Program-made: the position numbers
DNA from: Raja brachyura
Taxonomy: Eukaryota
NCBI GenBank assembly: GCA_963514005.1
Contig: OY740808.1
Span: 17,856,001-17,920,000 of the forward strand
Direction of reading: 5' to 3'
DNA: 64,000 nt
Shown here: in pieces, positions 51,001 through 64,000 of the stretch
Numbering within the stretch: the stretch's first letter is position 1
Layout of the letters: each line of letters begins with the position of its first letter

Positions 51001-54000
51001 CCCGATGAAACTGAACAATATAATATATACGAAGTATCCAATTATTCACAGTATAATACGAATCTGGAAACAAATAAAATTAACTTTAAAATTAAGAAAT
51101 TTATCGCTTCTTTCCCCAGTAGCTAACAATCCCTCATTCAAACCATCTATTATTGATAAAACATTTATCCATTGGGAAAGAATAGGAATTAAAATGATTG
51201 GAGATATGTATGAAATGGGAAAACTTTTATCATTCCAACAATTACAACTAAAATATAACTTGAAAAGTAACCAATATTTCAAATATCTTCAAATTCAAGA
51301 TTATTTGAAAAAATATATACAAGGATATCAAACTCTAACCTCAGATTTAACCTCTAACCTCTAACCTCAGGGACTGGGAACAAGAGTTATTGATAAAAAT
51401 CCCAAATGACAGATGGGAAAATGTTTTATTATATGTACATAAATGTTCGATTAATGTAAGACATAACCTAATTCAATTTTAAATTTTACACAGATTATAT
51501 TACTCGAAAACCAGATTGAATAAAATATTTCCAAATGTCTCCCCCATTTGTGATAAATGTCTAACTCAAAATACGACTATAGCATATTCCTTTGTCTCTT
51601 GCACAAAACTGCGTAAATTTTGGAATGAAACCTTTGGAACTTTTACAAAACTATTTAACACAAAATTGAACTCCAACACAGAACAGATTATCTTTGGATC
51701 AATGGAAGAGGGACGTAAATTAACTACGTTCCAAGAAGCTCTTCTTAATTATGGTTTAATAACAGCAAAAAAACTTATACTCAAATTCTGGAAAAACGCA
51801 ACCTTGCCAACGTTCAAAATGTGGATTTCAAATATGTCGGAAACGCTACATCTTGAAGAAATGAGATTCCTCCTACTAGGCAAAGTAGACCAATTCTTAA
51901 AGATTTGGTCTCCTTTTATCGACTTTTTACAAGCATATGGTGCAACATAACATAACCTTAGAAATTAAATGGTTCAGAACCGGATGACGGAGAGTAAAGA
52001 TATGAAATAAGTATATCTCTCCTAATTTATTTCCTCTACTTTCTCTTTTTCTTTCAATCTTTTTAGCTTTTTATCTCTGCTCTGTCTCTTTCGCTACCTG
52101 TATCTACTCGCTTATCTATCTATCTCAACACTCTTTATTTCCCTTTTTCTTTCACTGCTCTTTTATTATTAAATTAAAAATAAGAAGTTGTACAAGAATG
52201 GTAATGTGTATTAGGTACTTAGGTACCACACTATTGTACTTCTAAAAAAACAACAAAAAAAGATATTTGACAAGACCTTTAAGAACAATATTTGACAAAC
52301 TGCTGAAGGAGGTACGGGATGGACTTCTATTCAAAGATGTGGTAAAATGGACAAAGTAGTTTTTTGTGTAAGCAACCAAAGGAATTAAGCGATAACGGGG
52401 AGCTGATAATGTGCATGCAACTTAATGAATATTTGGTCTTGCAGTGTGGTGTTTTATACCATTTTGGAGAATGCAGGAGTAAACTGGTGGTTATTTCTAA
52501 TCTGAGCATTTCAATATATGAGAAGTGATTAATCAATAGTACCCACTCCATTACATTGTAGATTTGGGGTAAAGAGACATTTTAAATAATGTTTTTGATT
52601 ATTTCCTTTCCTTCTCAAACACTGCGATACAAGTAGTAGCAGGACTGGCGGCGGCGGGCGGTCTCTGTATTTGTTCCCAGGTGGGCTGTGTTGAGCTGGG
52701 GCGGGGCTGAGCGGCAGCTCCTGGCACCGAGCGAGGGGAGCCGGCGATGGTGGGCCGGTGGGGGCGAGGCTCCGAGCCGGACCCGGAGCTTCGCTCGCTG
52801 CCCTTCGCCCGCAGGCTCGCCTACTTCGACGGCGAGTTCGAGCGGCTGCGGCGGGAGCGGCGATTGCCGGCTTCGTCCTCGGCCCGGCTCCGGGCGCTGG
52901 AGCCGCTGCTGCGCCGCGGGCCTCGCCGCTCCCCCGGCCCTCGGTCGGCGCTGGCCGCCGGCGCCCTGCTGCTGCTACTGCTGCTCCTGCCATGCGGCCT
53001 ACTCCGCGCCGGCCCCGCCGCCCGCTTCCTCAGCTTCTGCGGCCGCGCACTGCTCATCCAGGTAGGTGTCCGGTCCGCGGCCCCCAACCCACCCACCCAC
53101 CGACCGTCCCGAACAAACCCCACCGCCTCCCGGCTGCTGAGAGTCTCCATTGCTGGCATTTCAGGCGTGGGGGGACCATTAATGGACTATCAACAATTAA
53201 AGTGCTGGGGTAACACAGCGGGCCAGGCAGCATCTCCGGAGAACATGGATTAGCAATGTTACAAAATTTTGAGATTTTAAAAATCAAGTCTGCAATTTAT
53301 CCCATCAGGTAAAGCATAACAAGAAGTTTAATTTGACACCTAATTTACTTTCATATCTTCAGTATTAAGAAAGTTATGGCCATTTTCATGCTCGGAAATG
53401 AGCATCTTGCTTCCCATTGCCTTTCAATTGACTTAACTCAAAAGCTGTGATCTGGAAAAATTAAAAGCCCATAACTTTATTAAAAATTAAGAGAACTCAA
53501 TGAAATTTTCAGTCATTATAGATTGAAGCATTCTGAAACAAATATTAAACAATCTTACTTGGATTACCTGAAATTAAAGTATATAATTAGTTAGTTATCT
53601 AATTGTAGCTAATTACAAAATTCAATGAGTAGATCTAAACATCTATCAATTTCTTAAGAAAAGATAAACTTTTTTTTAATTGCCTAAGTGTCCAAATAAC
53701 ATTCACACAATAATCCACAATATAACATAATTTTTAAATCTCATTTTCATGAATTTCTGGGCCAAATGGAAGGAATTTAGTGTTTACTGCCTGTAAATAA
53801 ATGGCCATTTAAATCAACTAGCGAGTGGGTTTTAGCGGAATGCGGTGGATTGGAACGTTGCGGTTAGCGGTGAAGTAGGGGGGGAAAATACTGGGGGTTC
53901 ATACATTTTTTGGGGAACTCATTTCGCAACATTAAAATAGTATTTATGCCTCCCAAAAAACCAACTTTTAATAAAAAAATAAAGTATTTACCTTTTTTTC

Positions 54001-63000: not shown

Positions 63001-64000
63001 GCACAGACTTGCGAACTGAGCCAAGGCTTGTGCTCTGGTTTCAAGCATGATTATTGACAAGTGGACACAATAGATAAGTGGGTTATTTCTACACAGGAAG
63101 AATTGCAACAAAGCAGCAGCAAAGGTGATCCGTGGATTTTATCTGCGGCCTTACTTCCTTCCGGCAGTGGTGGAATTGGCAGAGTCCAACTGGTTGCTAA
63201 TGGCAGCACAAACAGAAAATGGTGGCACGGGGGACACATTTGTAAAGGTAATAAAATGTGCTTGTGAATGATTGGTTCATAGTTTATGGTATTGTATGAG
63301 CGTTGACAGACCTGATACTCCCACAGTCTTGTACATCCTGTTTCAGTTGCTCAGATATTTCTGGGGCTTATTTAGAAGATGCAGAATGCCATTATCAACA
63401 AAATAAAACAATCTTAATTAATGTGGACTGGAGTAGCACTGGATTAAATGATGATCTGAATGATTTCCTTTGCAGGTGGGAGATCATGATGGGGACTTGC
63501 TGATGTGGATTGCCCAGCTACAAGGGGTTTTTGAGGTTCAGCTGTTGCCGAAAGACTTGTGTGCAAACAACTGTACTCACTACACCCTGCGGCTTTCACC
63601 TGGAGAAGCAGGTATGCACATTTGTGCCAAAGGAAATCTAATATGTGTGTCCATGTGTGCAATTCAGACCTATTCAGAATGGCATATTGGTTTGTGCTGT
63701 TTACGCAATATGATGAGAAGCAACCAAAATCTGTAGCTGCTAGAAATATGGAATAAAAACTGAAAATATTGGGCATACTCATCAGATCAGCCAGCATCTG
63801 TAAAGAGAGAGAAGTAATTTACTCACTTTTCTTATTCAAGAGCTTTATTGTTATACTTAATTTAAAGGCGGATCATAATGTTAATGTTATCTTACAGGGC
63901 TTGAAGGAAATATTGGATGTGGCTATTTGCAGTTTGAAGAAGGGTCTCGACCCAAAATGTCACTTATCCTTCTTCTCCAAAGATGCTAGCTTGCCTGCTG

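What the first reader, a model, noticed from the sequence alone, without database searches (positions are those of the whole stretch)
52747..63611. Uncharacterised C6orf89/BRAP-like membrane protein gene downstream of GRK3
Seen: six exons with canonical splice sites and matching phases (0,0,0,2,0,1) give ~335 uninterrupted codons, about half of them missed by the ORF track. The protein has a cytosolic Arg-rich N-terminus, one TM segment, then LPYWDWT..CLI.NP, CINVC, YLRQNLPLVITDG..EW, W.NC....AK.IR.FY.RPYFLP and WIAQLQG...QLLP..LC...C....L.PGE. From memory, the last motif and the topology match human C6orf89, while the rest is very divergent and resembles uncharacterised invertebrate family members. 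The PLVI.DG..W and L.PGE motifs suggest a cupin/JmjC-like fold; no HxD/E metal motif is evident. Inference: an ancient second family member kept in cartilaginous fish and apparently absent at this position in human, where MYO18B is the next known coding gene after GRK3.
Basis: partly seen in the sequence, partly recalled or inferred. Interest (0 to 1): 0.75.

Follow-up and report, generated by a model that had tools for sequence, protein, structure and literature searches.

The report
Membrane-anchored cupin-like gene beside GRK3
The six exons are real-looking and encode the first 335 residues of a single-pass membrane protein whose outer part looks like a degenerate JmjC/cupin enzyme fold, but its claimed kinship to human C6orf89 could not be tested here.

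Summary
Six + strand exons (52747-63611) have GT-AG borders and phases 0,0,0,2,0,1, giving 335 codons plus one base. Exon 1 lies in a CpG island. Donors rank at or above the 93rd percentile of local GT sites. Exons 2-6 show the same codon-position GC pattern as the neighbouring kinase exons; 1 of 5000 random sets of intronic ORFs reach it. The gene runs off the window.

Exon 1 gives an Arg-rich tail and a membrane helix at residues 68-86. Searched exon by exon, Pfam and PDB sequences give nothing. Language-model features place exon 3 among Cupin_8 clusters (0.96) and, weakly, exon 6 among JmjC/Cupin_8 clusters (0.81-0.85). Exon 6 has H-D-G-D where the HxD/E metal motif would sit.

The upstream gene is GRK3.

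[quoted passage not shown] C6orf89 membership, paralogue status and absence in human remain untested: the protein databases were closed and the joined-protein step was left out. Likely a new member of a known kind; moderate interest.

The parts
52620..53160 (.). CpG island over the presumed promoter, 5' UTR and exon 1
   Evidence: GC 0.73 and CpG o/e 0.93, against 0.40 and 0.41 for the whole window. It is one of three CpG-island-like stretches in 64 kb.
52747..53061 (+). Exon 1: ATG and 105 codons. It encodes an Arg-rich tail (17 K+R and 8 D+E in residues 1-67), then a membrane helix at residues 68-86. Phase 0 donor CAG|GTAGGT.
   Evidence: donor at the 99.4th percentile. All frames are open in this GC-rich stretch, so the frame rests on the ATG context, the donor and the GC periodicity (2 of 162 background ORFs reach it).
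56449..56559 (+). Exon 2: 37 codons, LLPYWDWT...CLIRNP...TDCIN, 2 Cys.
   Evidence: It has the only in-phase acceptor in its ORF. Donor AAT|GTGAGT is at the 97.5th percentile. No family hit.
57426..57581 (+). Exon 3: 52 codons, VCQKY...YLRQNLPLVITDGAEEWVALRDF. Likely the start of the cupin-type domain.
   Evidence: donor CGG|GTAAGT at the 99.6th percentile. In Atlas the first hits score 0.96, 16 of 30 hits fall in the Cupin_8 set, and 181-201 of 256 features are shared. Pfam and PDB gave no real hit. An alternative in-phase acceptor at 57462 scores almost the same.
62174..62310 (+). Exon 4: 45 codons plus TG. The least supported exon.
   Evidence: it ranks 3rd of 244 phase-compatible candidates. 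Rank 1 lies in a transposon-like ORF and rank 2 is 32 nt long. E3 cannot join E5 in phase, so an exon of length 2 mod 3 is required. No family or PDB hit.
63097..63247 (+). Exon 5: G plus 50 codons, KNCNKAAAKVIRGFYLRPYFLP...SNWLLMAAQ...
   Evidence: acceptor at the 95.8th percentile, donor at the 93.1st. Pfam and PDB gave only chance-level hits. No prokaryote relative.
63476..63611 (+). Exon 6: 45 codons plus 1 base, VGDHDGDLLMWIAQLQGVFEVQLLPKDLCANNCTHYTLRLSPGEA. It carries H-D-G-D where the HxD/E motif is expected, one N-C-T sequon and 2 Cys. The gene continues past the window.
   Evidence: In Atlas the nearest clusters score 0.81-0.85 and include JmjC/Cupin_8 sets; this is a lead only. PDB gave 0 hits. 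The single-exon AF2 model has pLDDT 70.8, with strands at residues 19-24 and 37-42.
519..34807 (+). Upstream neighbour: the 3' part of GRK3. Exons lie at 519-632 and near 4150-4236, 8958-9056, 13516-13611, 14699-14860, 16608-16742, 33480-33596 and 34640-34807. Its stop is about 17.9 kb before exon 1.
   Evidence: Pkinase E=7.3e-11 and PH E=1.2e-4. The last exon matches PDB GRK3 9ijj_4Z residues 629-688 of 688 at E=1.4e-21, against 2.4e-15 for GRK2.

Best explanation
This is the 5' two-thirds or more of a genuine protein-coding gene, transcribed from its own CpG-island promoter in tandem with and downstream of GRK3.

The product is a single-pass type II membrane protein. It has a 67-residue Arg-rich cytosolic tail and a signal-anchor helix at residues 68-86. 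After these comes a luminal or extracellular, cysteine-bearing domain that starts a Cupin_8/JmjC-type double-stranded beta-helix: exon 3 is the N-terminal strand region and exon 6 the core strands.

The site where JmjC enzymes carry their HxD/E iron ligands reads H-D-G-D. The His is kept, but Gly replaces the acidic ligand.

I infer that the domain no longer performs canonical Fe(II)/2-oxoglutarate chemistry. On this reading it works as a membrane-tethered binding module in the secretory pathway, as is reported for BRAP/C6orf89, the family it most probably belongs to.

Shown here: exon structure, coding-like composition, CpG island, helix and charge asymmetry, the Cupin_8 lead, and the lack of HxD/E.

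Inferred: the fold, the orientation, the loss of catalysis and the family.
For: - Exon anatomy and phases.
- Splice scores.
- Codon-position GC equals that of the GRK3 exons; 1 of 5000 random sets reach it.
- CpG island.
- No overlap with repeats.
- The helix at residues 68-86 has mean hydropathy 2.58. There are 17 K+R before it and 3 in the 19 residues after it, which by the positive-inside rule puts the N-terminus in the cytosol.
- E2-E6 carry seven Cys, and E6 has one N-C-T sequon. This fits a luminal domain.
- Atlas recognition values are 2712 (E3) and 3188 (E6), both above the 2300 mark that 9 in 100 shuffled proteins reach.
- E3's first hits score 0.96 with Cupin_8 clusters (16 of 30 hits). 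Of the seven rows shown for E6, five carry JmjC or Cupin_8 families. The two exons lie in the expected N-to-C order.
- Human BRAP is described as a 354-aa type II membrane protein with its helix at 66-86 (passages of PMC9275683). Fly CG4558 is listed as its closest relative (passage of PMC8872475).
- From recall only: the spacing from the His to AQLQG and on to LLP equals that of FIH (His199 to AQIKG to LFPP). That alignment puts Gly at Asp201 and Phe at the 2OG-binding Lys214.
Against: - Exon by exon, no Pfam family reached significance, and Cupin_8 or JmjC was not listed even at E<=10. A 38-aa GRK3 exon reached Pkinase at 7e-11 in the same kind of search.
- PDB sequence searches of E3, E4, E5 and E6 found no JmjC protein.
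- The E6 Atlas scores are below 0.9, which the tool calls a lead only. Shuffled sequences give a first hit of 0.95 or more about once in 100.
- Single-exon AF2 models are of low confidence. The E3 model shows no strand, and residues 4-15 of E6 are modelled as a helix.
- E4 has no homology support.
- Exons may be missing from the 3.4-kb and 4.6-kb introns.
- The distal His and the rest of the barrel lie outside the window, so loss of catalysis cannot be judged fully.
- The C6orf89 link rests on topology and recall.
Confidence: 0.6

Rival explanations
1. It is simply the 1:1 orthologue of C6orf89/BRAP that sits next to GRK3 in this lineage. It is not a second family member.
For: The topology and helix position match those reported for BRAP. 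The size class is similar: at least 335 aa here against 354 aa. Mouse BC004004 is also multi-exon, with its stop codon in exon 9.
Against: The only evidence is positional and recalled: human C6orf89 lies on chromosome 6p21, not beside GRK3. The model already has 335 codons before the last barrel strands, so the protein would be longer than BRAP. Nothing here tests whether the same genome holds another copy.
Confidence: 0.2
2. It is a divergent JmjC-only/Cupin_8 protein with no special relation to BRAP. One example would be a JMJD8-like secretory-pathway member or a lineage-specific family.
For: The Atlas rows name Cupin_8 and JmjC, and none of those shown is named C6orf89. JMJD8 shows that a JmjC domain can live in the ER lumen behind an N-terminal hydrophobic anchor (abstract and passages of PMC5684140).
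Against: JMJD8 has a signal peptide at residues 1-44 and no long cytosolic tail. There is no exon-level Cupin_8 hit in Pfam, which argues against a canonical member. The recalled motif order fits C6orf89.
Confidence: 0.2
3. The cupin domain is an active oxygenase with an unusual metal site. The site could be a His/His pair with Gly in place of the carboxylate, or could use one of the flanking Asp residues of H-D-G-D.
For: The His sits at the expected place and Asp lies at +1 and +3. From recall, bacterial Fe/2OG halogenases use HxA/G in place of HxD.
Against: By the recalled FIH alignment, the 2OG-binding Lys and Asn positions are Phe and Met. The distal His is not in the window. No sequence-level similarity to any solved oxygenase was found.
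Confidence: 0.12
4. It is not a functional gene: either a chance chain of open segments or a decayed pseudogene.
For: Open AG...GT segments are frequent, with 244 candidates for one slot. Single exons of 37-52 codons are not individually significant. There were no Pfam or PDB hits. No transcript data or cross-species conservation could be consulted.
Against: The CpG island lies exactly at exon 1. All donors rank at or above the 93rd percentile. Coding-type GC periodicity is reached by 1 of 5000 random sets. Two separate exons point to one superfamily in the right order. There is no stop or frameshift in 335 codons.
Confidence: 0.07

Closest known systems
C6orf89 / BRAP (bombesin receptor-activated protein; mouse BC004004; fly CG4558)
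   Same: Both are type II single-pass proteins with the helix near residues 66-86 (here 68-86), of similar size class and encoded by multi-exon genes. The C-terminal domain is described as a 'potential catalytic region' (passages of PMC9275683). The family has an invertebrate member (PMC8872475). From recall only, the order of motifs agrees: a W-rich/Cys motif, CxxC, PLVI.xG, and L.P...C...C...PG(D/E).
   Different: The gene sits beside GRK3. It already has 335 codons before the last barrel strands. It keeps a His at the metal-site position. No sequence comparison could be made here, so membership is unproven.
JmjC-only hydroxylases of the Cupin_8 family (FIH/HIF1AN, JMJD5, JMJD7, TYW5, HSPBAP1)
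   Same: Exon 3 and exon 6 have their nearest language-model neighbours among Cupin_8/JmjC clusters. From recall, the spacing of His, AQxxG and L(L/F)P matches FIH.
   Different: There is no Pfam or PDB sequence hit exon by exon. There is no HxD/E, only H-D-G-D. The protein is membrane-anchored with a luminal orientation, whereas these enzymes are cytosolic or nuclear.
JMJD8
   Same: A JmjC-type domain placed in the secretory pathway lumen and held by an N-terminal hydrophobic segment. No enzymatic activity is described in the parts I read (abstract and passages of PMC5684140).
   Different: JMJD8 has a signal peptide at residues 1-44 and no long Arg-rich cytosolic tail. It clusters with JMJD7, HSPBAP1, JMJD5, TYW5 and HIF1AN. 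This protein is too divergent for an exon-level Pfam match.
ASPH / ASPHD2-type membrane-bound 2OG oxygenases
   Same: Type II membrane topology with a luminal double-stranded beta-helix domain (recalled). ASPHD2 lies in the same human chromosomal region as GRK3 and MYO18B (recalled).
   Different: No hit to any Asp/Asn hydroxylase family appeared among the six exons at E<=10. The motifs are of the PLVI.xG...W Cupin_8 kind.

Membership tests
C6orf89/BRAP | Type II single-pass topology with a cytosolic N-terminus and the helix near residues 66-86 | tested here: met
   The helix is at residues 68-86 with mean hydropathy 2.58, and 17 K+R lie before it. BRAP's helix at 66-86 is taken from PMC9275683 passages.
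C6orf89/BRAP | Significant sequence similarity to C6orf89, BC004004 or CG4558 | not testable with these tools
   The protein databases were closed, no solved structure of the family turned up, and comparison with human sequence was barred. No Atlas row shown was named C6orf89. The resemblance is recalled only.
C6orf89/BRAP | A position in a family tree that would decide orthologue against paralogue, and whether a second copy exists in the same genome | not testable with these tools
   Only this 64-kb window is available. The neighbour is GRK3.
Cupin_8 / JmjC (PF13621, PF02373) | A match to the family profile | tested here: not met
   Six exons were scanned singly against Pfam at E<=10, and no Cupin_8 or JmjC row appeared. 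The joined protein was not scanned, so this failure applies to fragments of 37-105 aa only.
Cupin_8 / JmjC (PF13621, PF02373) | Family-like sequence features in the N-terminal strand region and in the core strands | tested here: inconclusive
   E3 scores 0.96 with 16 of 30 hits in the Cupin_8 set. E6 scores 0.81-0.85 with JmjC/Cupin_8 clusters. These are leads without alignment or E-value.
Cupin_8 / JmjC (PF13621, PF02373) | The HxD/E...H iron-binding triad | tested here: not met
   None of the five His in the six exons is followed by D or E at +2. The expected site reads H-D-G. The distal His would lie beyond the window.
Cupin_8 / JmjC (PF13621, PF02373) | Double-stranded beta-helix fold | tested here: inconclusive
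   Single-exon AF2 models have pLDDT 70.8 (E6, two strands) and 61.7 (E3, helices only). They are too short and too uncertain for a fold search. The joined model was left out.
GRK3 (upstream neighbour) | A kinase plus PH domain and a GRK3-type C-terminal exon | tested here: met
   Pkinase at 7.3e-11 and PH at 1.2e-4. PDB GRK3 9ijj_4Z matches at 1.4e-21 and 78.7 bits to its last residue, against GRK2 at 2.4e-15 and 59 bits.

The most novel reading that the evidence does not exclude
The BRAP/C6orf89 family descends from secretory-pathway JmjC oxygenases. This GRK3-linked gene is a slowly evolving second vertebrate member, lost in mammals, that still keeps the first iron-binding His in an H-x-G arrangement. 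The boldest form of this reading is that it is still an enzyme with a carboxylate-free His/His iron site of the kind so far known from bacterial Fe/2OG halogenases, acting on luminal or extracellular substrates.
Probability: 0.08. Interest if true: 0.8.

Novelty: new member of a known kind. Interest (0 to 1): 0.4.

Why it matters
BRAP/C6orf89 is studied in lung fibrosis, skin inflammation and ER stress. The parts of the papers I read give no fold or mechanism for it. Two full-text searches found no paper linking it to JmjC, and the one paper that holds both 'C6orf89' and 'cupin' is an unrelated migraine study by its title.

If this gene is a relative that keeps clearer cupin features, it would give the family a structural and evolutionary frame, that of a degenerate oxygenase. 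It would also offer a more informative sequence for modelling, and an example of a vertebrate gene retained next to GRK3 in some lineages and lost in others.

If it is only the automatically annotated orthologue or paralogue of a known family, it is ordinary.

Tried and rejected
- Pfam on the six exons singly at E<=10 gave only chance rows: Orexin, LysM14_C, Tyrosinase and SCP_3, all below their cut-offs.
- PDB sequence searches gave nothing real. E6 and E4 had 0 hits. E3 matched only a dynein N-terminus at E=0.023. E5 matched tachylectin-2 at E=0.084.
- Single-exon AlphaFold2 gave low confidence, so I ran no fold search on the models.
- The prokaryote genome scan with E3 and E5 found no relative. 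E6 was too short for that tool.
- An RNY codon test did not discriminate, even for GRK3. I replaced it with codon-position GC.
- Rfam found 0 families in the window.
- Literature searches gave 0 papers for BRAP plus JmjC. C6orf89 plus cupin gave one paper, unrelated by its title. C6orf89 homolog/-like/ortholog gave one pig GWAS. CG4558 gave only PMC8872475.
- I considered and set aside an ASPHD2-type hydroxylase, because no such family appeared.
- I set aside JMJD8 itself, because its N-terminus differs.
- I set aside a transposon-derived ORF chain, because no exon overlaps a repeat.
- I rejected the higher-scoring E4 candidate at 61566-61828. It lies in the 218-aa ORF 61191-61847, which carries the peptide typical of the LINE tails at 15718-16239 and 45128-45556.
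Full report
**Scope and limits**

I made no joined protein and did not search or fold one. This is the main limit of the report.

Comparison with human sequence was barred. Paper supplements were closed and I did not consult them.

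I do not take the window for human. It holds a Tc1/mariner remnant with a Sleeping-Beauty-type HTH domain, LINE remnants and an LTR-element remnant. Its GRK3 last exon differs at many positions from the PDB GRK3 chain. The window contains no N.

**1. The observation**

| Exon | Coordinates | Content |
|---|---|---|
| E1 | 52747-53061 | 105 codons |
| E2 | 56449-56559 | 37 codons |
| E3 | 57426-57581 | 52 codons |
| E4 | 62174-62310 | 45 codons + TG |
| E5 | 63097-63247 | G + 50 codons |
| E6 | 63476-63611 | 45 codons + 1 base |

- All introns are GT-AG, and the phases after each exon are 0,0,0,2,0,1. The total is 335 codons plus one base.
- The split codon between E4 and E5 is TGG.
- The last exon ends in phase 1 at a CAG|GTATGC donor. 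Nothing exon-like follows in the remaining 389 bases, so the gene continues beyond the window.

**2. Is it more than chance?**

Phase-compatible open AG...GT segments are common. There are 244 candidates for the E4 slot alone, so the chain by itself proves little. Five other lines do count.

- **CpG island.** E1 sits in a discrete island at 52620-53160, with GC 0.73 and CpG o/e 0.93 against 0.40 and 0.41 for the window. It is one of only three such stretches in 64 kb.
- **Splice sites.** I used a rough weight matrix typed from recalled consensus frequencies. The six donors rank at the 93.1-99.6th percentile of the 685 GT sites in 52-64 kb. The five acceptors rank at the 77.7-97.5th percentile of 761 AG sites. 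In every exon-bearing ORF the chosen acceptor is the best in-phase AG, though for E3 only narrowly.
- **Codon-position GC.** E2-E6 give 0.55/0.37/0.51. The GRK3 exons of the same window give 0.56/0.37/0.50. The 162 intronic or intergenic stop-free ORFs give 0.43/0.40/0.41. Only 1 of 5000 random sets of five such ORFs reaches the pooled value. An RNY test did not discriminate, even for GRK3.
- **Repeats.** No exon overlaps an in-window repeat.
- **Protein-likeness.** Two exons are recognised as protein-like and point to one superfamily (section 3).

E4 is the weakest part. It ranks 3rd of 244 candidates. Rank 1 lies in a transposon-like ORF and rank 2 is 32 nt long. Since E3 cannot be joined to E5 in phase, some exon of that length class must exist. 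Unseen phase-0 exons in the 3.4-kb and 4.6-kb introns cannot be excluded.

**3. What it encodes**

The N-terminal part:
- E1 gives 67 residues with 17 K+R and 8 D+E.
- The best 19-residue hydrophobic stretch follows at residues 68-86, with mean Kyte-Doolittle value 2.58.
- By the positive-inside rule this is a type II signal anchor. That orientation is an inference.
- Downstream, E2-E6 carry seven Cys, and E6 has one N-C-T sequon. Both fit a luminal or extracellular domain.

Sequence searches, exon by exon, found no family.
- Pfam at E<=10 listed only sub-threshold chance rows and no Cupin_8 or JmjC.
- PDB sequence searches of E3, E4, E5 and E6 gave nothing real.
- This is a real negative. A 38-aa GRK3 exon reached Pkinase at 7.3e-11 in the same kind of search. 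The protein is therefore not a canonical Cupin_8 member.

The language-model search gave a different picture.
- For E3 (52 aa) the first hits score 0.96. Sixteen of 30 hits fall in the Cupin_8 set, and 181-201 of 256 features are shared.
- For E6 (45 aa) the nearest clusters score 0.81-0.85. Five of the seven rows shown carry JmjC or Cupin_8 families. The tool rates scores under 0.9 as leads only.
- Recognition values were 2712 and 3188. Nine in 100 shuffled sequences reach 2300.
- The two exons lie in the N-to-C order expected for the start and the core of such a domain.

Single-exon AlphaFold2 models were of low confidence. E6 had pLDDT 70.8 and E3 had 61.7, and the models add little. I ran no fold search on them.

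**4. The metal site**

- E6 begins VGDHDGD-LLMWIAQLQG-VFEVQLLP.
- From my recollection of FIH, the distances from the His to the AQxxG strand and on to the L(L/F)P turn are the same as from His199. This was not tested here, because no tool returned an FIH alignment.
- That alignment would put Gly at the Asp201 position and Phe at the 2OG-binding Lys214.
- I therefore think the domain has lost canonical Fe(II)/2-oxoglutarate chemistry and acts as a binding module.
- The distal His lies beyond the window, so this stays an inference. An unusual active site remains a minority reading.

**5. Surroundings**

- The + strand upstream carries the 3' part of a GRK2/3-type kinase, with Pkinase and PH matches.
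- Its last exon matches PDB GRK3 (9ijj_4Z, residues 629-688 of 688) at E=1.4e-21 and 78.7 bits. The best GRK2 match is 2.4e-15 and 59 bits. The 'downstream of GRK3' statement therefore holds.
- The stop codon is near 34805-34807, about 17.9 kb before exon 1.
- The interval and the introns are full of transposon remnants.
- Rfam found nothing in the window.
- The long minus-strand ORFs over E1 and E6 are what GC-rich DNA and the antisense of a coding exon usually give.

**6. Comparison with known families**

*BRAP/C6orf89.*
- It is described as a 354-aa type II membrane protein with its helix at residues 66-86 and a 'potential catalytic region' in its C-terminus. The mouse gene has its stop codon in exon 9 (passages of PMC9275683; passages of PMC10758153).
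- Fly CG4558 is listed as its closest relative (passage of PMC8872475).
- The topology test is met here. The sequence test could not be run.
- Orthologue against paralogue, and absence from the human interval, could not be addressed.

*JMJD8.* It shows that a JmjC-type domain can reside in the ER lumen behind an N-terminal hydrophobic segment (abstract and passages of PMC5684140). It has a 1-44 signal peptide and no long cytosolic tail.

*Literature.* One full-text search found no paper that holds both 'bombesin receptor-activated protein' and 'JmjC'. Another found one paper holding 'C6orf89' and 'cupin', an unrelated migraine study by its title.

**7. Verdict**

- The gene model is sound, with about 0.9 probability that it is a real gene.
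- The type II topology is likely.
- The cupin/JmjC-like fold is a good lead, at about 0.7.
- The metal site is degenerate.
- The C6orf89 family assignment is plausible but untested, at about 0.55.
- The evolutionary claim is open.
- This is most likely a new member of a known, poorly understood kind, and of moderate interest.

Noticed in passing
window 49303-49464 and 52426-52587: A 162-bp direct repeat at 96% identity brackets about 3 kb that holds LINE-type reverse-transcriptase ORFs (49491-51950, RVT_1). It ends 160 bp before the ATG of exon 1, at the edge of the CpG island. This looks like a young retroelement insertion just upstream of the promoter.
   Followed up: partly
window 7172-7879: A GC-rich block is open in all six frames, with repetitive Gly/Ala/Pro/Arg-rich translations. 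It is CpG-island-like and lies inside a GRK3 intron. Its nature is unknown.
   Followed up: no
window 1687-2634 (-): A Tc1/mariner transposase remnant split over two frames. It carries a Sleeping-Beauty-type HTH, HTH_Tnp_Tc3_2 and DDE_3 domains.
   Followed up: partly
window 21614-24781 (+): A run of long ORFs from an LTR-retrotransposon remnant in the 17-kb GRK3 intron. Integrase_H2C2 matches at 8.2e-13.
   Followed up: partly
window 15718-16239 (-), 45128-45556 (-), about 61500-61700 (+): The same LINE-tail peptide recurs at these places (…PSGRRYKSLK… type). The first copy matches Pfam ALKBH8_N at 4.5e-12. The third lies in intron 3 of the target gene and produced the top-scoring false candidate for exon 4.
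   Followed up: partly
window 54301-54548, 57988-58074, 61287-61377 and 8014-8107, 20638-20893: A short interspersed repeat at 77-98% identity is shared between introns of the target gene and introns of GRK3.
   Followed up: no
window 16760-33480: The GRK3 intron between the two PH-domain exons is about 17 kb and consists largely of transposon remnants. The penultimate GRK3 exon lies near 33480-33596.
   Followed up: partly
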